From NCBI RefSeq assembly GCF_009914755.1, contig NC_060926.1: a DNA stretch of 64,000 nucleotides. One strand, given 5' to 3'. This document shows positions 2,994-62,232 of this stretch, in pieces. The notes under the pieces are model-generated. The model searched no databases. It was not told the origin of the DNA and saw only the letters and a list, made by a program, of their open reading frames with translations. Origin of the DNA: the human T2T-CHM13v2.0 reference genome, Homo sapiens. How positions within the stretch are numbered: position 1 is the stretch's first letter; each line of letters starts with the position of its first letter. The translations under genes and the position numbers were made by a program.

Positions 2994-3486
2994 CTGATGG
3001 CGTTTCTAGATTGAAGGCATCCATAAGTTTTGACAATAGTTCTTGCAGTTCCTCTTCCTCCAGCTCATCCTTTCTCTCCTTGATGTTACCTGCCTCTTTC
3101 TTTTCCACGGCTGCCAGAGCAGGACTGCTCATTTCAGCAGGAACCATTTTGGGGATGTCCTGCTTCAGTCCCTCCTGATAACTGGGTAGGGCACTAATGA
3201 CTTTCTTTGGCATCTTTTGTGTTTGGCTTTGTGCCCTGGTGCTGTGCAAAGTGGTCTCTGGTGATTCTGGATTTCGCAGAGCATGCTCTGCATTTGTGTG
3301 ACTTCTGTGACTTCTGTCAACCTCATCAAGCTTAGGAAGAGGTTCCCCTGTTGAAGCATCTTCAGTGGCATTCTTGATCTGCAAATAATCCCCTCCCTTT
3401 GGAACCTTTTCAGTTGAAGAATGGTCAACCTTGTTCCCCACATTTTGAAAGGAAGAAGATGAAGGACCGGGTGGCTGCAACCTTGC
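2994..3486 (-). CDS. DYTN: DYTN exon 11 (ARLQPPG...FNLETPS), low-complexity C-terminal region
   Basis: ccccag|GCA...TCAG|gtaagg; matches ORF 2935-3498. Confidence 0.95.
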
Positions 3487-5958: not shown

Positions 5959-6118
5959 CTGTAGGTCCCGTCTTATCTGTTGTAGCTTGGTCCATAGACT
6001 ATCCTGGTTGGTTTTGAGTTTGTGAATCCTTGTTTCAAATCGACAAATTCTTTCTTCCTGGGAGGTGTATATAGCTTGCAACTTGTCTTTGTATTGGTTT
6101 AACTGTTTTTTAAGGAGC
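5959..6118 (-). CDS. DYTN: DYTN exon 10 (coiled coil, LLKKQLNQYKDKL...RRDLQ)
   Basis: cttttcag|G...CAG|gtataa; heptad-rich; phase 2 matches exon 9. Confidence 0.95.
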
Positions 6119-8791: not shown

Positions 8792-9165
8792 TGATATGGT
8801 TTGGCTGTGTCCCCACCCAAATTTCATCTTGAATTGTAATCCCCATAATCCCCACGTGTCAAGGGCAGGACCAGGTGGAGGTAATTAAATCATGAGGGCA
8901 GTTTTCCCCATGCTGTTCTCATGATAGTGAGTGAGTCTCACGAGATCTGATGGTTTTATAAGCATCTGGCGTTTCCCCCGCTTGTCCTCACTCCATCCTG
9001 CCACCCTGTGAAGAAGGTGTCTGCTTCTCCTTTGCCTTCCACCATGATTGTAAGTTTCCTGAGGCCTCCCCAGCAGTGTGGAACTGTGAGTCAATTAAAC
9101 CTCTTTGCTTTATAAATTACCCAGTCTCAGGCGTTTCTTCACAGCAGTGTGAGATTGGACTAATA
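8792..9165 (+). mobile_element. THE1 (ERVL-MaLR) solo LTR
   Basis: tgatatggtttggctgtgtccccacccaaat...ggactaata. Confidence 0.9.
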
Positions 9166-10579
9166 AATTTACCTAGCACAGTGTAGACTAATAATAGATA
9201 ACTAGTAATTGAATAGTACTCTTTCTGTTAATGTGTCTGAGACTGTTGCTTTTAAAATAATCAGTGACATAATTGACTATCAGTGAACTTGCAGTTAACT
9301 ACCACATATATCACAGGTCTTTTTCACACTACTTGTGCACATGGGCCTCCAATTGTGGGACTTTAATCCCTTAAAATTTGGTCTTTATTAACTGCCTCAC
9401 TATTCCAGTCTATTACATCTCAGTGATCCAAGACTGTAATTCAGTTTATTACCTAGGGGTTTTGGTATCATGTCACACACACATTTGAGAATTGGGCTGT
9501 CTACAGTTTCATCCAAATTATTGATAAAAATGATGGTGCAGACAGGAACAAAGATGGAGCTTCATGTTTTATTTCATTCAATAATCAGCCTTACACTTTG
9601 GTACACTTTGTAGTGATAAATACTTTAGCAGTATACAAATGCTGTAAATAGTAGACATGGATTATATCAAAGGGAATATTTAGTTTAAAATGATTCATTT
9701 TAAATAATCATTTTAAGAAGGTAAGTTAAAAAAACTAAATTTTAAAATTTGCTTTTATTTCTACATTTTCAATTTTAATATAGCCTTTCTAGTGCTTTAC
9801 TGCTTTAAAAATGTTTTCTAATTTCTTTTTCTTATTCCATGAAAAAGATGAAAACTACTTTTAATATTTAAATTATTTTGATACTTTAAAAGTGTTTATT
9901 GAACTCCTTTTCCTGAGTTATCACAGAATTTAGAAAATGTTTTATTTCTTCTGTACATTTAGATTAGGAAGCATATCTCATCATACATATATACATAGAA
10001 TTGCTAGTTTATTGGACATGTACTGGATATTAAGTATTGTGCCTGAAAACAAAGGTCTTCCCTCAGGGGAAACTTCTTACTGGGGAGCCAGGAATTCTGT
10101 CTTCTAAAGGAATAACAGCAGGAGCTAAGAGCTCAAGAGATGATTAGTTCCTTAAGACACAATAAGAAGATGATAGACAGTTTCCATTCAGCCTAATAAA
10201 CCTAGTAGAAAGTTAGAATGCTGTTGGATAACAAGTACTGATTTCTTTAGAAGAAGGTAAAACACATACATAACACAAGATATACACAAGAATCAATACT
10301 TCACTAAAAGTGCTTAACTAAATTCCAAGGAATAAAATCAGGCAATCGAAAGTCAAAACTTACTTAGCCTGGTCATTTTTGTTATGCTTAACTACTCAAA
10401 TACAGTCAAAGCTCCCTTTAACCTTCATATTGGAATCACAGGATTTCTTGGCTTAAAATTTTCTCCCAAATTAAAAAAAAATGGTAAAATTTTTGTAGAA
10501 AATTTTTCTCTAAAAGCAAAGGAAATGCTATGGATTTCTCTCTGTGGTCGGTATTTGCACATACTCATGTGGCTCCTAT

Positions 10580-10650
10580 CTTCTTTCTCTATGGAGAGCA
10601 TTAATGGATTCATGAGTCCTCGGCAGTTCATTCCTAGTGCTGACCATGGT
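10580..10650 (-). pseudogene. Candidate dead (relic) DYTN exon with GT>AT donor
   Basis: Strong acceptor tttatttcttccttctctag|ACC; open frame TMVSTRNELPRTHESINALHRER; ends AG|ATAGGA in phase 2, fitting exon 10. Confidence 0.65.
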
Positions 10651-13002
10651 CTAGAGAAGGAAGAAATAAAAAAATAAGTTTTTGGTTTGAATTTAATCCA
10701 CATCCTAAAAATCCATATAAGAACATGATAATTATGTTTTTCAAAGAAATTCAATCTATTTCAAAAAGTGGCTGCTGTTTGGGTTTACATTCGTGTATGA
10801 TGACGCAGATGTTTACATGCTCAAAGTACAACTGCATATCCAATTTCACAAAAGAAGTTAAAACAGTTTTAGGTTTTAGAAATAACGTCACAATAGTCTT
10901 TTGCTCAAGTTAAGTTGCTACCCTGAATGTCTTCTTCCCCAAAGGCATCTACAGGAAGCAGTTGAGTCACTTTCTTTCCCTTGGCTTAGGAAGTCTCTTA
11001 CTTCTACCATACACCTTTAACTTTCACTTTCTTGTCTTTCCTTTGCTTGCTACCTGCGTGTGCACTAAAGTCATCATTTCTTTTCAAATCCACCAAGTGT
11101 TTTGAATAAATAATGGTCAACTTGGCTGTCACTTAGGAATTCCCCACCAAACCTTGTCTCTTACATCACACTCTGCGCCCTGAACTGCAACCCCAGGACA
11201 AGTTCTGACCTGACCCAGTCTGGCCCAGGCTCCTGGGGCACCATGTTCCAGCCCTTGGCTCCCACACATCGGAATGAAAGATTGGATTTCATTACACTCC
11301 ATTTATAAACAGCTGTGGCTACAATCTGCAGTCTTCTCCCATCCCTGCAAATGATCTGAAGAGGGGCTGGCCATTTTAGGAACATTGTTGCACAGGAACA
11401 GCCTGAAAAAGCAAAAGGGCAGTAGCAGGAAGAAGAAACTGAACTATATACAGACTTAAAGTCGCATTCTCTGGTTGCTGTGTGCCCTTTGCAGCCCCTT
11501 TGAGTGAAATGTGCCACTGCCTCTTCATTCAAATACTTAAACAGCTTCCACGTGCATAGCATAGTCTTTGAATCAGCGAACTTTACATTATTTTTAAAAT
11601 AATTACAACTCAAATAATAATTGCAGAATATCATGGCTTTGTAAAATGACTGTACTCTCATAAGCCATTGTTTACCTCTATTCAGTCTCTATATATGGTG
11701 GAGATAGAGTAGGAAAAGTGTATACATATGCTATAAACTTATTTATGTGTTCTAACACTTAGGGAGAACAATGAAAAACCTTAAAATTCTCAAATAACTC
11801 AGTGATTTAATGTATATTGTTAATATGAAGAAAATCTTTAAAAGAATTTCTTGCACCAGTATTATGTGGTACATATTTTTCTGCAATTGAGAAGCATTTC
11901 AGGTTAGTGCAAATGGTGGTATATCCATAGAATAGACACTATGGTTTATTTAGTCATTCGCAATGAAAGCATAAGCTGTTTCCAATATTTCAAAATCTTC
12001 AAAATGAAAAGCAATGCTGTAGTAAACATAGCCGTATGTGCCTCCTTGTACACATGTGCAAGGTTCTTGGGTTTTAAGTTTAATAGACACTATCCATTTG
12101 CCCCTTTGGGCAGGTGCATGCGCGTACACACATACACACACACTCACACACTTGAAAATGCATAGAAAAAGATCTGCAAAGATATACTTCAAACAGATTA
12201 CCTCTGGGGAATTAGGGACTGGACCTGGGTTGAGAATTATGGTTGAAAAGGACCTTAGATTTATTTATAATATTTTAACTTCTTATACGTCAAACAGATT
12301 CATGTCTTATTTCTATGAAGTGCATTTTTTAATAAAAATATGTTATATACCTAAGATAGGATGTAGCAACTTTAATAATGAAGGTGAGAGGGAAGTAAAA
12401 GAAAAGTGAAATAAAGGAACAAAACAGCTCTTAAATTTCCTCCCTCAGAACAAATGGATGTTACAGTGAAGAAAAGCCTGAATTGTGAATGTTTTTCCAT
12501 CCTCGTTTGTTTGAAGCAGGAAATAGAGTAGCTCCTTATTTGTCCTCATACATCAGTCCAGCTCTCTGTCGCACACTCTAGCATGATGCCTGTGTCTTGG
12601 CAGGTGTCCCATGAGGGGTGTCTCCTGGTGTCCCAGTCTGTATGAGCTGATGAGTAAAATGCAGACAGGCCCAATAAAACATCACACACAGGTGGCCACT
12701 TGTCACTGGATGGTCACAAGACTTACTCTCCACTCACACTTAACTGCAATACGGAAACTCCAGTTTTTCTCTGACTATTACAGATGACCATATTCTGAAA
12801 ACCTTTCTTAAGCTCAGACTGTACTGATTATGATTGCACGAAAGCTTACAAGTGGAGTTACACATGTGGGGGCAAATAAACAGCTGATTGAAAACATGCT
12901 AAAGTATTTGCAGAATGTACACTTAAAAAAACATAGCATTTCTAATCTCTTTGATGAAAAAACTTCACTGGGATTTTTAAAGTTCACTCCCCCATCTTAT
13001 TT

Positions 13003-13272
13003 TTCTTTTTTAAAAAAACTTGCATTTTGAGTTCAGGGGTACATGTGCAGGATGCACAGGTTTGTTACGTAGGTAAATGTGTGTCATGGGGGTTGCTGTA
13101 CAGATTATTTCATCACCCAGGTATTAAGCTTAGTTTCCACTAGTTATTTTCCTGATCCTCTCCCTCCTCCCACCCTCTGCCCTCCAGTAGGCCCCAGTGT
13201 GTGTTGTTTCCCTCTATGCAACCATGTGTTCTCATCATTTAGCTCCCAAGCTCCCACTTGTAAGTGAGAATA
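13003..13272 (-). mobile_element. L1PA/PB 3' end
   Basis: ggggtacatgtgcagg...cccacttgtaagtgagaa. Confidence 0.88.
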
Positions 13273-13320
13273 TTTCTTTCTTATCTCTTCCCTTTTTAAA
13301 ATTTCTGAACATTTTACTGA

Positions 13321-13644
<324 letters not shown>

Positions 13645-15195
13645 GGTTCTCCGATTTTTTAAAATAACCTAAGATCTTATGATACTGAGTTGGCAAGTTA
13701 AGGCCCTCTGGGCAGAAGGAAGCCTTATCTGTAAGTTATAATCAGAAGTCTTGGGCAGAGACTTCATATCTATAGACACTGTAGTAGTTTAAAGATGACA
13801 GGGTTGAATGCAACCTATCTTAGAAATGGTCCCCTCAAAGCTGAACTTTGTCCGCTAACGTGGTAAACAACACAGTTCATTGGTTGCATATCAGAGGTGG
13901 CACATATTGTTGTGGTTAGAATTGCCCATTCTTTTGGGACAACAGATTAAAGAAAATTCATGTTGCTCAGCCATATGTAAATGAGAATAGGCTTTGTGTC
14001 TTCTTAAGGACATCACTATTGAGTCTTCTAATACATGCCACAAAGGAGCAATATAATTTATACTATAATTGAGTACACCAGCACACTACTGTTGCAATTA
14101 ATTTATAGTTCTTACCTGGATAGACAATTTACAATAGACTTTTATCCTTACAAACATCCAAATTATCTGGTCTACTCTACTCTTCCAGAAAAATTATGCA
14201 ATTGGGCATATTAAATAGACCAAAGGCTGACCAGTAGTTGTGTATTTTGAGGATATTATAGATTTTCTTAGCAGATATTTAGAAACAAAAATGATCTTTA
14301 GGAAAAAAATGACTTGATTTCTGGGAGTAAAAGTTGAGCATATTTGAGTTGAATTCAAATAGAAATTTGAAGATTTGAAAAATAAATAAAATGATACACT
14401 TAAAATATTTTTCTTAACTAATTATTTTGAAAATCTTGATAAAGTAGATAATTCCTTCAAGAAAATTAAATCATCAAAGTTGACTGAAGAAAGCATGAAG
14501 AGACTATTAAGTTTGAACAAATAAAAAATTTATGAAACTATTATAAAGCCTCCAGTGCCCAGGGCTTTACTGTTGAATATTAGCAATTGTTAAAGAAATA
14601 AATAATTTCTATGTTAGATAAATTATGTCAAACACAAGAAAAGATGAAATATGACTCAGTTGTTTAATGTAGCCATAAAAACTCAAATGCTCAAAACTGA
14701 TGCAGATAAGATGGAGTGGGGAGATATTCTGATTCATAAATGTTGCAATTCTAAATAGAAAACAAAATTTAAAGGACGTTTAAAGAATAATCTACAAACA
14801 AGTGTAGATTTTAGTTGCAGCAATGCCAGAAATGTTTACTATTAGTTACTCTATTAATGAAATACTTCCAATAAGAAAAAAATGTTTGAAAATTTCAGTT
14901 GGTGCTGAAAACAGATTTTAAATAAGTAAATCAAAACACCTCCCCCAAAAAAGTTTTAAAAACAAGGACCAGAAAAACACTTCCTCTACGTTAAAAACCA
15001 TCTCGAGCCAACAACTAAAACTGTAATATCTAAAGGAAAAGCACTAGAGAAATGCCCCCACTAAATCTACTCTCATTAAAAATAGTTGCCCCATTATCTC
15101 TTGAATTATCTATCATTGCTCTGAAAGATGTGGAGTCTTTCAGGAATAAAGACCTGAAATAGAAACAAGAGGTTTAAATATTGGAGGGGAAAAAA

Positions 15196-15196
15196 C

Positions 15197-15254
<58 letters not shown>

Positions 15255-15440
15255 ATATATATTTAAATATATATACACATATATTTAAATATATATGTAT
15301 TTTTGTATTTAAGTGTATTTAAATATATATGTATATATGTAAATAAACATATATATGTGTATATATGTATGTATGTTATATTTAAATATATATTTATATT
15401 TTATATGTTGATCTTTAAATATATTTAAATATATATATTT
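15196..15440. repeat. (TA)n/(TG)n low-complexity tract
   Basis: Direct reading. Confidence 0.9.
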
Positions 15441-15844
15441 TTTTCAGATTGTGTGATTGTCTACCTAGAAGCAAGATGTTCAAAATAAACCAATATTTGA
15501 GTTTCTAAAACAATTCATTCAGAAAAGTTTCTCTTTTCAGGGTAACTATTCAAAAAGCCATAGCTTTCCAAAATATCATCATCAATAATTAAGAAATAAT
15601 ACAGTGGGAAAAGCCCCTACTCACAATATTATCACAATATGACAGGAAATCAGCTATGTATAACCTTTTACTGAGAGACAGAAAAACACTTGAAAAAATA
15701 GAGAAACCTAAATATCACAAAGATAAAAGATGTTTCCACATCAACATATAGGTTTAATGCAAAGCTAACCAAAATACTAATAGGATTAATTTTGGCACCT
15801 TAGAAATGATTTCAAGATTCGTTGAGAAGAATAATTGTGTTATA

Positions 15845-16683
15845 CAACCCCATCAAAAAGTGGGCAAGGGATATGAACAGACACTTCTCAAAAGAAGACA
15901 TTTATGTGGCCAACAAACATGAAAAATAACTCATCATCACTGGTCGTTAGAGAAAAGCAAATTAAAACCACAATGAGATACCATCTCAAGCCAGTTAGAA
16001 AGATGATCATTAAAATGTCTGGAAACAACAGATGCTGGTGAGGTTGTGGAGAAATAGGAATGCTTTCACACTTGGTGGGAGTGTAAATTAGTTCAACCAT
16101 TGTGAAAGTCAATGTGGCAATTCCTCAAGGATCAAGAACCAGAAATATCATTTGACCCAGCAATCCCATTACTGGGTATAAACCCAAAGGATTATAAATC
16201 ATTCTACTATAAAGACACCTGCACACATAGGTTTAATGCAGCACTATTCACAATAGCAAAGACTTGGAAGCAACCCAAATGCCCATCAATGATAGACTGG
16301 ATAAAGAAAATGTGGCACATATACACCATGGAATACTATGCAGTCATAAAAAAGAATGAGTTCATGTCCTTTGCAGGGACATGGATGAAGCTAGAAACCA
16401 TCATCCACAGCAAACTAACACAGGAACAGAAAACCAAACACTGCATGTTCTCACTCATAAGTGGGAGCTGAACAATGAGAACACATGGACACAGGGAGGA
16501 GAACATCACATACCGGGGCCTGTCAGGGGGTCGGGGGCAAGGGGAGGGAGAGCATTAGGACAAATAGTTAACGCATGCGGGGCCTAAAACCTAGATGATG
16601 GCTTGATAGGTGCAGCAAACCACCATGGTACATGTATATCTGCACGTTCAACACATATATCCCAGAATTTAAAATTTTTAAAA
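15845..16683 (+). mobile_element. 5'-truncated L1PA (end of ORF2 plus 3'UTR) within older L1M sequence
   Basis: ORF2 C-terminal peptide (ORF 16112-16471); 18-bp TSD aagaataattgtgttata at 15827-15844 and 16684-16701. Confidence 0.93.
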
Positions 16684-17038
16684 AAGAATAATTGTGTTAT
16701 AATAGCTAATACGTAAAAATATAAAAATGAAAAGGGGGAAAATGGTTAATGGGTATAAAGTTTCAGTTATGCAAGATAAGCAAGTTCTGGAGGTGTACTA
16801 AACAGCAGTGCCTATAGTTAACAGCACTGTGTATTGTATACTTAAAATTTGCTCAGAGATTAGATCTTGTAGTGTTCTTACCACACGTACAAATTAACTA
16901 TAATAATTATAAAGGGAGGAAACTTTAGGAGGTGATGGGTATGTTTATGGTTTCACAGGTGCATCTTTATCCCCAAACTCATCAAATGGTATACATTAAA
17001 TATGTACAGCTTTCTTTTTCTTAAAAAAAACTGATTAA

Positions 17039-17345
<307 letters not shown>

Positions 17346-17805
17346 ATGTACAGCTTTTGCATGTCAATTGTATCTCAATAAATTGGTTAACAAAATGAAA
17401 TAAAAAGGGAAAACTAGCTTTATGTTAATGGCTATCAGAAAGCTAGAATAATTCAAGTAATGCTGTTCTTATGTAAAAATAAAATGAAAAGCAACTGAGC
17501 TGAATAGATAGCATTAAAACACATTCTAAAATGACAAATTTTTTGGTATATACTACAGGAACCATGATAAAAATTAAAAAGGAAAGGATTTATTCAAAAA
17601 AAGGAATAGGGGACTCTCTTAGCTTACCTCTGATTATGCATCAGAATAAAAACCAGATAGATTTAAAAGCTATGTGTCAAGATAATCAAATCATGTTAAA
17701 ACAAAATACAGCTAGAGTCATTTGATTTCTCAATGAATAAATTTTTCCCAGCATAAAACTGTGAAAGAAATTACAAAGAAAAAGAAAGAGACTGATAATG
17801 TTTTT

Positions 17806-18098
17806 AGACTGAGCATGGTGGCTCACACCTGTAATCCCAGCACTTTGGGAGACTGAGGCGGGCAGATCACATAAGGTCAGGAGTTCAAGACCAGCCTGGC
17901 CAACACAGTGAAACCCCGTCTCTACTAAAAATACAAAAATTAGCTGGGCGTGATGCGGGCACCTGGAATCCCAGCTACTTGAGAGGCTGAGGCAGAATAA
18001 TCGCTTGAACCCGGGAAGCGGAGGTTGCAGTGAGCCAAGATAGTGCCCCTGTGCTCCAGCCTGGGTGACAGAGCAAGACTCCATCTCAAAAAAAAAAA
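17806..18098 (+). mobile_element. Alu (AluS-like)
   Basis: Sense Alu with poly(A). Confidence 0.95.
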
Positions 18099-19113
18099 GA
18101 CTAACGCTTTTATAAGAATTGAAAGTTTATATGTAGGAAGTCAAATTATCAATAAGACTAAAAGGAAATAACTAGGAAGAAAGATTTCCCTAGTCAAAAT
18201 ATAAAAAGTTTAAATACATTGGTAAATCAAACTGATTCATCAGTAAAAACGGCAGCAGGTGCTGATGAAGGAAAAAATACAGTTGCCTTGTACATTATGT
18301 GGGGAAAAGCTTCATTTCACTCTGAGTCAGAGAAATGCAAATTAAAGCAAATTAAATATATTCCAGTGATAAAATTATCAAAAATTAAAACAAGGCGATA
18401 GTCAATATTAGCAAGGATCTTGTGAGAAAGGTGCTACATTCACTAGAAGCCTAACTTGGTATTCCTTTCTAAAAGGCAATTTTGCAATAAGCATGAAGAG
18501 CCTTAAAAATGTTTGTACTTTTCATTCTTGTGATTCACTTTAGAAATGTATCCTAAGGAAATAATTGGAGATGTTTACAAAGAACAATGTATAAGAATTT
18601 TAATAGTGAAGTTTTAAATTATAGCAAAAATTAGAAATAATCCAAATATCAACAACGGTGGAGTTAAATCATATTATGCTTATTTAAATAAAAATTATAT
18701 AACCATTAAGATGTTTTTTGAAGAATTACAATGACAATGGAAAATGCTCTTAATCTAACTATAGAGAACTATATAATGAATAAATTTTACAGTGTAGTCT
18801 AAGCTAATTTTAAAATGTTTATAGGAAAGGAAGTATACCAAAATATTGACAGTGGGGTAATAGCGGATTATTTGCCATTTTAATTTTGTTCTTTGTTCTC
18901 TTTTGACTTTTTGAAACTTTCTATAATAAATGTATAGCACTTTGTGATTTGAGATAAAAAGTTATTCAATAAAAGAAGGTTTTAGATTTTTCCTTGGTCA
19001 TATGAACATCTTAAAAAGAATCCCCAAACTAGGGAATGCTTCACTGAACTTCACTGCAAAATGGTCCAGATTATTTGTGCTTTAGTAGCAGTTCCTTTCC
19101 GTTTTGGACTCAC

Positions 19114-19267
19114 CTGGTAACATGAGTTGCTGTCCTCAGTTTGTTGACCCCGAGACATTCTTTCAGGTACAGGTATAGGCTTGGAGGCACCTGTGGCTGC
19201 TGTTTCCATTGGTCCAGTTGGCCTTACATCTGCTGTTCCTTTAGAACTCTTGTACTGAATGGAGACG
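19114..19267 (-). other. Candidate relic/cryptic DYTN exon (phase 2 to 0)
   Basis: Perfect donor CAG|gtgagt at 19114; stop-free frame; only weak acceptors (19267, 19273, 19254). Confidence 0.35.
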
Positions 19268-20147
19268 CTATTACTGAGTTTTATAAGAAAGTTGTAGCAA
19301 CTTTTAATTATCAGGTATGACATTGAGGAAAGCCTTTTTAGAAAATGTACATTAGATATTGAAGGTTTTACTCACCCACCCCCACAATAGCAATAAAGCA
19401 GGCCAACTTTTCTCTCTGTGTTCTTTTCCAGACAATTTTGTTGACAGAGTCAAGTAGCCAATAATAGAAATAAAAATTCAATTTTCCCTTCTCCTTGACA
19501 ATCTAGACATGAGAATGCAAAGAATTCAGGGGTGACAGCAGAAAATCCCCCAGGTCATCTTGTCCAGGTCAGACATTAGGAGTTATAAATGCAGGTATGT
19601 GTTTATCACGTCAAATCTGAAAGAACATATAATATATCAGACTAGTTTAAGGTCAGGTATATTCTGTTATACAATTCCATTTGGTTTCATTCCTTTATTT
19701 AAAAACTATTTTTAAACATCATCTCAAGTTATGGCAGATATAAAACAAAAAAGCAGAGAACTCCTGATTCCAGATAATTCACATCTAAAGAACAGATAAA
19801 TATAGAATCATTTTACACATAACATTATGCTTTCTACAAGACACAATGAGAACATAAGGAAAGACACGATTATTCTGTGATATACTTAATTATACCAGGG
19901 GTGTGCATTTTGGGGTAGAAGAATAGGGTGACCCACAGTTTCTTTGTAACAAACCTTCTGAATGACAAACTCGATTCCTACCCCATCTGAGATCATTTTC
20001 ATATCTTGGTATTGTTCTGCTCTGTCTTCATTTGCTCAGGATGCTATAACAAACAGACTGGGTGGTGTAAGCAACTGGCATTTATTTTCTCACAGTTCTA
20101 GAGGCTGAAAGTCTGAGATCAGAGTGCCAGCGTGGTCGGTCATACAC

Positions 20148-20510
20148 TGTGTTAGTCAATTTTCATACTGCTGTGAAGAAATACCCGAGATGGGGTAATT
20201 TATAAAGAAAAAGAAGTTTAATGGACTCACAGTTCCACATGGCTGGGGAGGCCTCATAATCATGGCAGAAAGCAACAGAGGAACAAAAGCACGTCTTACA
20301 TGGCAGCAGGCAAGAGAGTGTGTGCAGGGAAACTGCCCTTTATAAAACCATCAGATCTTATGAGACTTACTCACTATTATGAGAAGAGCATGGGAAAAAC
20401 CTGCCCCCATGATTCAATTACCTCCCACCAGGTCCCTCCCACAACACATGGGGATTATGGGAGCTACAATTCAGGATGGGATTTGGGTGGGGAGACAACC
20501 ATATCATATA
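20148..20510 (-). mobile_element. THE1 solo LTR, next to an MLT1 fragment (about 20030-20135)
   Basis: tgtgttagtc...caaccatatca is the reverse complement of THE1. Confidence 0.88.
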
Positions 20511-24864: not shown

Positions 24865-27500
<2,636 letters not shown>

Positions 27501-33272: not shown

Positions 33273-33421
33273 CTGGCCTGCGCATGGTGAGGCACACCCT
33301 TTGGATTCACCTGGTCCAGCAGCTGCTGCCTTCTCGCTGCTTCTTTCTTCCTACAGCGCCCCTGAAGAAGGTTGTTTCTGAGGGTCCTGAAGAGAAGTTT
33401 TGTATTCTGCATTGCTGACAT
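33273..33421 (-). CDS. DYTN: DYTN exon 9 (MSAMQNTKLLFRTLRN...HHAQA)
   Basis: tttcagcag|ATG...GCCAG|gtgagt; open frame, phase 0 to 2. Confidence 0.93.
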
Positions 33422-50622: not shown

Positions 50623-50697
50623 ACTGGCACAGAGTTTGCACTGATTGTAATTTGAAGGCTGTTCTATAAATGGAATTCTCAATACTATTAAGAGCAT
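50623..50697 (-). CDS. DYTN: DYTN exon 2 (DALNSIENSIYRTAFKLQSVQTLCQ)
   Basis: ttctttacag|AT...CAGT|gtaagt; the YRTAxKL motif is typical of the dystrophin/dystrobrevin EF-hand region. Confidence 0.95.
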
Positions 50698-61291: not shown

Positions 61292-62232
61292 GTGGTAATC
61301 TAAGACTTCCCAAAACCTAGCAAGTTTCCATATATATTCAAATAAGATTTTTTAGAAAAGTTGTAGCATGGTAAATCAGTTTAGAACTCTTCTTGGTGTA
61401 GAAATTCCTGAAGTTCCTAGGTAGGCCTGGAAGGGTCCAGCCTCCCGGCCAGTCAACAGGATAGCTGAAGATATGATCTATCTGCCTCTACACCAAGTCC
61501 TTACCTTTCTTAGTTTCCGCAGAGAAGCATTCTAGTGGAACCTCCGTAAAAATGACTCAGCAGTTCTAGAAGACAGAAGCTGAGTAAAATCAGGTTTCCA
61601 GATGTAGCATTCCTGTGTAGAGTTGATTTCTTGTTCTGGTTGTCTAGCAATTGCATGCAAAACAGTAATCTTTGAGGCTGCACTATTTTTAAGGGCTCAC
61701 AGAAGCACATTCATTAATAATAAAGATCCTGAATAATTTAAGGCTACTCCCACATCTCTTGTTTCAAAGGGCCATTTTCATATCAGTTTCACATGTAAAC
61801 TGATGTAAACTGAAAGGCAGGTAAAACTTCTGGGTGCTATTGAGAGCAGGGCATATCACAGAGAGCAGCAAGCAGTCAGAAGGGCCCCATGTCCCACATA
61901 ACCGCCACCTTCCAAACCAACTCAGATAGGAGTGACCTAGGAGTGGAACTGAAGTAATTTTATTCTTTTATAAACACAGAGATGGGGTTACACATTTTTA
62001 AAAGGCATTAAATATAATGCAGGTCTTGAAAAGGATAATAATAATTTGTTATGAATGTACATTTCCTCTTAAAATTAAGTATAATCAGAAAATGTCTTAT
62101 TTCTAAAGAAGTTTAGACTAAAAATGAATTTGTTCTAATCCTATTAGGATTTTTAAAAGATGATGTCACATGAACCAAATGTATCACAACTTTACCATTA
62201 ATGACTTCAAGCTGTTGAAAAGGTAGGGAGCG

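What the first reader, a model, noticed from the sequence alone, without database searches (positions are those of the whole stretch)
10565..10670. Dead DYTN exon: one GT>AT donor change appears to remove the start of the coiled coil
Seen on the minus strand: a long polypyrimidine acceptor (tttttttatttcttccttctctag|), then 71 nt open in frame 0 (TMVSTRNELPRTHESINALHRER) ending AGA AG|ATAGGA. Changing base 10579 gives the canonical donor AAG|GTAGGA in phase 2, the phase exon 10 needs. The join reads ...HESINALHRER-R-LLKKQLNQYKDKL..., a continuous heptad pattern. The next GT (GA|GTATGT, exon end 10565) would include an in-frame TAG and give an NMD substrate. Inference: an ancestral exon was inactivated in this lineage, shortening the first helix of the dystrophin-family coiled coil. 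This may already be mentioned in comparative dystrotelin work; I cannot check.
Basis: partly seen in the sequence, partly recalled or inferred. Interest (0 to 1): 0.8.

Follow-up and report, generated by a model that had tools for sequence, protein, structure and literature searches.

The report
Known dead exon 12 of DYTN
This is a real leftover exon of the human dystrotelin gene whose splice donor reads AT instead of GT, but the loss was published in 2007, and it is only in frame because a second neighbouring exon is lost with it.

Summary
On the minus strand a strong pyrimidine acceptor is followed by a 71-nt open segment (10650-10580), then AT (10579-10578) where a donor GT should be.

It is a true relic exon. 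Five of five long-form dystrotelins (645-662 aa) match it by tblastn (E 8e-7 to 4e-4). Identity is 22/24 residues to marmoset. The real peptide scores 41.6 bits against a maximum of 23.9 for 200 shuffles.

It is already published. Jin et al. [quoted passage not shown] They found both exons absent from human cDNA, an in-frame loss of 75 codons. They also report the same defects in chimp and rhesus.

A 71-nt exon cannot be dropped or restored in frame alone, because the upstream exon ends in phase 2. I located the partner, relic exon 11, at 19267-19114 (154 nt, weak acceptor, good donor). 154+71 = 225 nt = 75 codons.

Two small additions:
- Marmoset and mouse-lemur gene models still hold both exons, so the loss may be limited to catarrhines.
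- The human relic has P where 8 of 8 long forms have W.

Interest is low.

The parts
10580..10650 (-). Relic of DYTN exon 12 (numbering of Jin et al. 2007): 71 nt, entered in phase 0, leaves in phase 2, still open in the ancestral frame
   Evidence: sequence, frame; tblastn hits from 5 of 5 long forms at 10650-10579; 16-22 of 24 residues identical to 8 long-form orthologues.
10578..10579 (-). Donor dinucleotide position reading AT instead of GT (AAG|ATAGGA)
   Evidence: Jin et al. 2007 describe this GT-to-AT mutation.
10651..10677 (-). Intact strong polypyrimidine tract and TAG acceptor of relic exon 12
   Evidence: pyrimidine share 0.94 over -20..-5, longest pyrimidine run 14, the best of the 12 acceptors scored.
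10563..10578 (-). Read-through tail: in-frame TAG at 10578-10576 and the next GT at 10564-10563 (GA|GTATGT)
19114..19267 (-). Relic of DYTN exon 11: 154 nt, entered in phase 2, leaves in phase 0, still open in the ancestral frame. Its donor CAG|gtgagt (GT at 19113-19112) is intact.
   Evidence: tblastn hits from 4 of 5 long forms, marmoset E 9.7e-19 (Condylura gave none under E 1). (sequence, length, frame). 154+71 = 225 nt = the 75 codons of Jin et al..
19268..19290 (-). Weak acceptor of relic exon 11: purine-rich ...cttataaaactcagtaatag, no polypyrimidine tract next to the AG
   Evidence: pyrimidine share 0.50 over -20..-5, the lowest of the 12 acceptors scored. [quoted passage not shown]
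33273..33421 (-). Annotated exon upstream of the two relics (human exon 9, exon 10 in mouse numbering); ends in phase 2
   Evidence: and the annotation given with the finding.
5959..6118 (-). Annotated exon downstream of the two relics (human exon 10, exon 13 in mouse numbering); starts in phase 2 and encodes LLKKQL...
   Evidence: and the annotation.
26615..27461 (-). VPS26CP1 (= DSCR3) processed pseudogene, lying in what was the intron upstream of exon 11
   Evidence: Annotation given with the finding. Jin et al. mention a DSCR3 pseudogene inserted in primate DYTN intron 9.

Best explanation
Window 10580-10650 (minus strand) is the non-functional relic of dystrotelin exon 12. In mammals that keep it, this 71-nt exon follows the 154-nt exon 11. 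It encodes the N-terminal part of a long alpha-helix that continues into the exon starting LLKKQL. In the human lineage the exon-12 donor reads AT instead of GT, so U1/U2-type splicing cannot define the exon. Exon 11 (relic at 19114-19267) has lost the pyrimidine tract at its acceptor. The spliceosome therefore joins 33273 directly to 6118 across a 27-kb intron. Each exon alone would shift the frame (154 = 1 mod 3, 71 = 2 mod 3). Dropping both removes exactly 75 codons and keeps the reading frame. The human protein has 578 residues, against about 645-662 in the long forms, and its first C-terminal helix is shorter.

Shown here: the sequence, phases, homology and position of both relics. Taken from print: absence from human cDNA and the same defects in chimp and rhesus. 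Inferred: that the splice defects are the cause of skipping, and the effect on the helix.
For: Sequence and phases.

Homology: tblastn of 5 long-form dystrotelins against the window hits every annotated coding exon from 50623-50697 down to 2994-3486 (not the 19-nt coding part of exon 1). It also hits 10650-10579 (5 of 5) and 19266-~19114 (4 of 5) in the right order and on the right strand.

Identity of the relic-12 translation to 8 long forms: 22, 17, 17, 16, 19, 17, 19 and 17 of 24.

Shuffle control: 41.6 bits against a maximum of 23.9 in 200 shuffles.

Arithmetic: 154+71 = 225 nt, which matches the 'in-frame loss of 75 codons' in Jin et al. 2007. That paper also names both defects and reports both exons absent from human cDNA DQ516347 (passages).

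Annotation: the single RefSeq transcript given with the finding lacks both exons.

Relaxed constraint: the human relic has P at a position where 8 of 8 long forms have W.

Helix: the AlphaFold model of the alpaca long form has one helix at 369-461 covering exon 12 (382-405, pLDDT about 60) and the next exon (pLDDT 65-88). The short form has a helix at 322-388. Heptad register 1 is best on both sides of the join: human 4/7 and 5/7, alpaca 5/7 and 5/7.
Against: No RNA data were examined here. Absence from mRNA rests on the annotation and on the 2007 paper. No primate genomic DNA was available, so the ancestral GT at 10579-10578 is inferred from gene models that include the exon (marmoset X2, mouse lemur X1), not seen directly.

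Both AlphaFold models are poor overall (mean pLDDT 42.6 and 37.7), so the helix lengths are only hints.

Short forms lacking both exons are also predicted in many non-primates: 12 of the 16 non-primate models aligned. Skipping may therefore predate the splice-site defects, or those models may simply copy the human protein.

At the protein level the relics are no more diverged from marmoset than the live flanking exons (relic 11 40/51 and relic 12 22/24, against 39/49 and 47/53). Decay is therefore not obvious apart from the W-to-P change.
Confidence: 0.95

Rival explanations
1. Joint skipping of exons 11 and 12 is an old, regulated alternative isoform of mammalian dystrotelin. Catarrhine primates merely hard-wired the short isoform, and the splice-site defects arose after inclusion had already become dispensable. 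This concerns the order of events and is compatible with the anatomy above.
For: Long and short predicted forms coexist in single species: marmoset P0011/P0010, alpaca P0037/P0036, and rabbit P0030 with the rabbit-like P0031. Twelve of the 16 non-primate models aligned lack the segment. The in-frame sum of two exons that each break the frame fits a cassette that is skipped as a pair.
Against: All of these are automatic gene models, which can be shaped by alignment to the human protein. No transcript evidence was seen. Jin et al. report full-length mouse cDNA with 15 exons, and in the passages read the only alternative splicing mentioned for mouse is of exon 4.
Confidence: 0.3
2. The exon is not fully dead. 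It is still included at a low level, either through the non-canonical AT donor or through the cryptic GT at 10564-10563, giving a frameshifted or stop-containing message that is degraded (a 'poison exon').
For: The acceptor is the strongest in the gene, and a GT lies 15 nt downstream.
Against: The donor ATAGGAGC does not match the U12-type AT-AC donor consensus as I recall it (ATATCC...). The downstream acceptor ends in AG. Any inclusion without exon 11 shifts the frame, and with exon 11 it meets TAG. The amplified human cDNA lacks the exon, as does the single RefSeq transcript.
Confidence: 0.08
3. It is a chance open frame behind a chance pyrimidine-rich AG, with no ancestry as an exon.
For: Acceptor-like sites followed by 23 open codons are common on this strand (10 of 13). 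Long open frames occur by chance in other frames here.
Against: There is specific homology to the exon-12 peptide of 8 of 8 long-form orthologues, in the right order, strand and phase. The shuffle control separates it clearly. It is described in print.
Confidence: 0.01

Closest known systems
Human DYTN 'exon 12' as described by Jin et al. 2007, BMC Genomics 8:19 (PMC1790709; passages read)
   Same: Same gene, same defect (GT-to-AT at the donor) and same consequence (absent from cDNA). With exon 11 the in-frame loss is 75 codons, matched here by 154+71 nt. The paper reports the defects in chimp and rhesus as well.
   Different: Nothing essential. The passages I read give no coordinates. I add window coordinates for both relics, the phase argument, the W-to-P change, and the observation that marmoset and mouse-lemur models retain the exons. 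The paper speaks of 'primate dystrotelin genes' after looking at human, chimp and rhesus. Its Figure 3, which shows the relic exons in lower case, is not held, and supplements were closed.
Functional exon 12 of long-form mammalian dystrotelin (e.g. alpaca P0037 residues 382-405, marmoset isoform X2 P0011 residues 387-410; mouse Dytn per Jin et al.)
   Same: Same position between exons 11 and 13, same length and phase, and 16-22 of 24 residues identical.
   Different: The human copy has AT at the donor and a proline at the conserved tryptophan, and it is not in the mRNA.
Lineage-specific exon loss by splice-site point mutation in the same superfamily (alpha-dystrobrevin elements missing in mouse and rat; Bohm et al. 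2009, PMC2796648; only title, start of abstract and reference list seen)
   Same: A general kind of event: coding elements present in some mammals and lost in others within the dystrophin/dystrobrevin/dystrotelin family.
   Different: A different gene and lineage. I did not read that paper's mechanism.

Membership tests
Orthologue (relic) of dystrotelin exon 12 | Sequence homology to the exon-12 peptide of dystrotelins that include it | tested here: met
   5 of 5 long forms hit 10650-10579 (E 8e-7 to 3.9e-4); 16-22 of 24 identical in 8 of 8; 41.6 bits against a maximum of 23.9 in 200 shuffles.
Orthologue (relic) of dystrotelin exon 12 | Collinear position and strand between the exon-11 and exon-13 equivalents | tested here: met
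   order on the minus strand is 33424-33272, 19266-19114, 10650-10579, 6120-5956.
Orthologue (relic) of dystrotelin exon 12 | Conserved length and phase (71 nt, phase 0 in, phase 2 out), so that exons 11+12 add 75 codons | tested here: met
   71 nt and 154 nt, with phases fitting the flanking exons. '75 codons', and exon length and phase 'absolutely conserved'.
Dead (unspliced) exon | Loss of an obligatory splice signal | tested here: met
   the donor reads AT.
Dead (unspliced) exon | Absence from mature mRNA | not testable with these tools
   No RNA-seq was available. The claim rests on the single RefSeq transcript in the annotation and on the cDNA of Jin et al..
Dead (unspliced) exon | Ancestral state GT in lineages that use the exon | not testable with these tools
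   No primate or other mammalian genomic DNA is held. It is only inferred from gene models that include the exon.
U12-type AT-AC intron (considered as a way the AT donor could work) | Donor consensus of the ATATCC type and matching 3' end (consensus recalled, not from a call) | tested here: not met
   donor ATAGGAGC; the downstream acceptor ends ...ttttcag.
Coiled-coil / long helix start | Continuous helix and heptad register across the exon 12/13 join | tested here: inconclusive
   the same best register on both sides (human 9/14, alpaca 10/14 a/d positions hydrophobic, against 15/48 and 17/48 overall); helix 369-461, but model mean pLDDT is 42.6 and exon-12 pLDDT is about 60. No coiled-coil predictor was run.

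The most novel reading that the evidence does not exclude
The loss of exons 11 and 12 is not pan-primate, as the 2007 paper's wording suggests, but catarrhine-specific: marmoset and mouse lemur still use both exons. The catarrhine defects may also have only fixed a pre-existing short isoform that skips both exons, which many mammals already make. That would explain how two exons that each break the frame could be lost without killing the gene.
Probability: 0.3. Interest if true: 0.3.

Novelty: already known. Interest (0 to 1): 0.1.

Why it matters
It matters little beyond bookkeeping. Dystrotelin is a fast-evolving, poorly understood relative of dystrophin. According to Jin et al. it is even disrupted by nonsense mutations in chimpanzee, and they judged the 75-codon deletion to have 'little functional impact'. 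The useful points are practical. Human DYTN is not a like-for-like model of mouse Dytn in its first C-terminal helix. The two relics are a clean example of two frame-breaking exons lost as an in-frame pair. Their coordinates (10580-10650 and 19114-19267) can serve to annotate the 27-kb intron.

Tried and rejected
(1) Reading the 71-nt exon as a single cassette between the annotated exons was rejected. Entered from the phase-2 end of 33273-33421 it reads a different frame, and the next exon then runs into a stop.

(2) Using openness of the frame as evidence was rejected. Open stretches of this length are common here.

(4) A search for catarrhine protein models holding exon 11, using the human relic-11 translation and longer targets, returned 3 hits among 11 candidates: marmoset X2 and two unnamed metagenome ORFs, which I did not follow. 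This search works by shared words, so the blank is weak evidence.

(5) A search with the marmoset exon 11-12 region found only 4 proteins among 58 candidates, too few for a taxonomic survey.

(6) An Rfam scan of 9000-20500 on both strands found no family at gathering score.

(7) Literature searches: 'dystrotelin' (26 papers, 20 listed), 'DYTN' (36 papers, 30 listed), 'dystrotelin' + 'splice site' (6 papers), 'DYTN' + 'exon loss' (0 papers). Judged from the listed titles and abstract starts, no paper other than Jin et al. 2007 treats these exons. PMC2796648 only cites dystrotelin in its reference list.

(8) The two AlphaFold models were too poor for any tertiary reading, so no fold search was made.

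Full report
**Observation.** A long pyrimidine run ends in TAG at 10651. A 71-nt segment (10650-10580) follows, and its frame 0 reads TMVSTRNELPRTHESINALHRER plus the two bases AG. The donor position then reads AT (10579-10578), giving AAG|ATAGGA. Reading on gives an in-frame TAG at 10578-10576, and the next GT is at 10564-10563. The annotated exon 5959-6118 begins in phase 2, so the 3' join would read R-LLKKQL.

**Is it more than chance?** The splice-like signals and the open frame are not enough on their own. On this strand, 10 of 13 AG sites with at least 15/16 pyrimidines upstream are followed by 23 or more open codons in some frame. Unrelated frames on both strands are open for 111-113 codons at this spot. 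Homology decides the matter.

- A protein search with the downstream exon (47 hits with E<=0.001 among 50 candidates) returned named dystrotelins of many mammals.
- I aligned 27 of those 47, dropping 20 that were same-genus duplicates or fragments. Five carry an extra segment of about 75 residues between the two annotated exons: marmoset isoform X2 (661 aa), a 662-aa rabbit-like entry, Condylura (645), alpaca (662) and pika (645).
- That segment ends ...VSIRNELWRT.ESINALHRER directly before LLKKQL.
- A second search (4 hits among 58 candidates) added mouse lemur X1, chinchilla (flagged low quality) and Mastomys.
- tblastn of the five long forms against the window hits 10650-10579 in 5 of 5 (E 8.0e-7, 1.5e-4, 3.0e-4, 3.6e-6, 3.9e-4).
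- The relic translation is identical to the eight long forms at 22, 17, 17, 16, 19, 17, 19 and 17 of 24 positions.
- The alpaca exon-12 peptide scores 41.6 bits, against a maximum of 23.9 for 200 shuffles.

**The missing half.** The upstream annotated exon (33273-33421) ends in phase 2, but the relic must be entered in phase 0, and 71 is not a multiple of three. The exon therefore cannot have been a lone cassette. The same tblastn run finds the partner. Four of five long forms hit 19266-~19114 on the minus strand (marmoset E 9.7e-19, alpaca 6.9e-5, rabbit-like 1.2e-4, pika 0.002; Condylura gave no hit under E 1).

The sequence gives an exon at 19267-19114 of 154 nt. It is entered in phase 2, leaves in phase 0, and is still open. 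Its donor is very good (CAG|gtgagt). Its acceptor is purine-rich (...cttataaaactcagtaatag), with a pyrimidine share of 0.50 over -20..-5, the lowest of the 12 acceptors scored. The relic-12 acceptor scores 0.94, the highest. 154+71 = 225 nt = 75 codons. The ancestral introns were about 14.0, 8.5 and 4.5 kb. They now form one 27-kb intron, which also holds the VPS26CP1 pseudogene upstream of relic exon 11.

**Already in print.** Jin et al. 2007 (BMC Genomics 8:19, PMC1790709; passages read) named dystrotelin. [quoted passage not shown] They found both exons absent from amplified human cDNA, 'resulting in an in-frame loss of 75 codons'. They report the same defects in chimp and rhesus, and a DSCR3 pseudogene in intron 9. 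[quoted passage not shown] My coordinates and arithmetic match this exactly, so the finding is a rediscovery. Judged from the listed titles and abstract starts, no other paper in the four literature searches treats these exons (for one candidate).

**Mechanism.** The AT donor removes exon definition for exon 12, and the weak acceptor does the same for exon 11. The spliceosome joins 33273 to 6118. Either exon alone would shift the frame, and only joint skipping is in frame.

Whether exon 12 encoded the start of a coiled coil is moderately supported. The same heptad register is best on both sides of the join: human 4/7 and 5/7, alpaca 5/7 and 5/7 of a/d positions hydrophobic, against about one third overall. 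An AlphaFold model of the alpaca long form (built from an alignment of 25 sequences) has a single helix at 369-461. That helix covers the end of exon 11, all of exon 12 (pLDDT about 60) and the next exon (pLDDT 65-88). The alpaca short form gives a helix at 322-388. Both models are poor overall (mean pLDDT 42.6 and 37.7), so this is a hint about secondary structure only. Jin et al. found no significant similarity of this region to dystrophin. The only resemblance they note lies in the second coiled-coil region, so 'dystrophin-family coiled coil' overstates the case for this helix.

**What goes slightly beyond the paper.**

- Marmoset isoform X2 and mouse lemur X1 models contain both exons. All 6 catarrhine models aligned lack them, as do 4 of 5 platyrrhine models. 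A search with the human relic-11 translation found no catarrhine model holding it (weak evidence). The loss may therefore be catarrhine-specific rather than pan-primate.
- The human relic has proline where 8 of 8 long forms, marmoset included, have tryptophan (NELWRT). This fits relaxed constraint. Otherwise the relics are no more diverged from marmoset than the live flanking exons.
- Short models lacking both exons are predicted in 12 of the 16 non-primate models aligned, and beside long forms in alpaca and rabbit. This could mean an old alternative isoform, or gene models shaped by the human protein.

None of these three points could be tested on DNA or RNA with the tools at hand.

**Verdict.** This is a real feature. 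It was correctly seen and essentially correctly interpreted, but it was published in 2007 and is incomplete without relic exon 11. Interest is low.

Noticed in passing
window 19114-19267 (-): Relic of DYTN exon 11: 154 nt, still open, good donor, acceptor without a pyrimidine tract. Its first base is C, so the junction codon would read Ser, where 4 of the 8 long forms (marmoset, mouse lemur, Mastomys, alpaca) have Arg at the aligned position.
   Followed up: yes
window 61506-61547 (-): Homologue of the alternative first coding exon used by marmoset isoform X2 (11 of 13 residues identical, tblastn E 0.18, followed by gtaagg). In human the position of the marmoset start codon reads ACG, so it could not start translation there.
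   Followed up: partly
proteins P0010/P0011, P0036/P0037, P0030/P0031 and other models: Many non-primate mammals (bats, whales, hippo, pigs, rabbit, alpaca) have predicted dystrotelins of about 580 aa that lack exons 11+12, sometimes beside a model of about 660 aa. This is either a widespread alternative isoform or gene models guided by the human protein.
   Followed up: partly
proteins P0001 (533 aa) and P0002 (560 aa): The chimpanzee and bonobo dystrotelin models are shorter than the 578 aa of other apes. Jin et al. report three fixed nonsense mutations in chimp DYTN. I did not map them onto the window.
   Followed up: no
window 10425-10760 (-) and 10336-10677 (+): Stop-free stretches of 111 and 113 codons in frames unrelated to DYTN overlap the relic exon. 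They show that open frames of this size arise by chance in this AT-rich intron.
   Followed up: no
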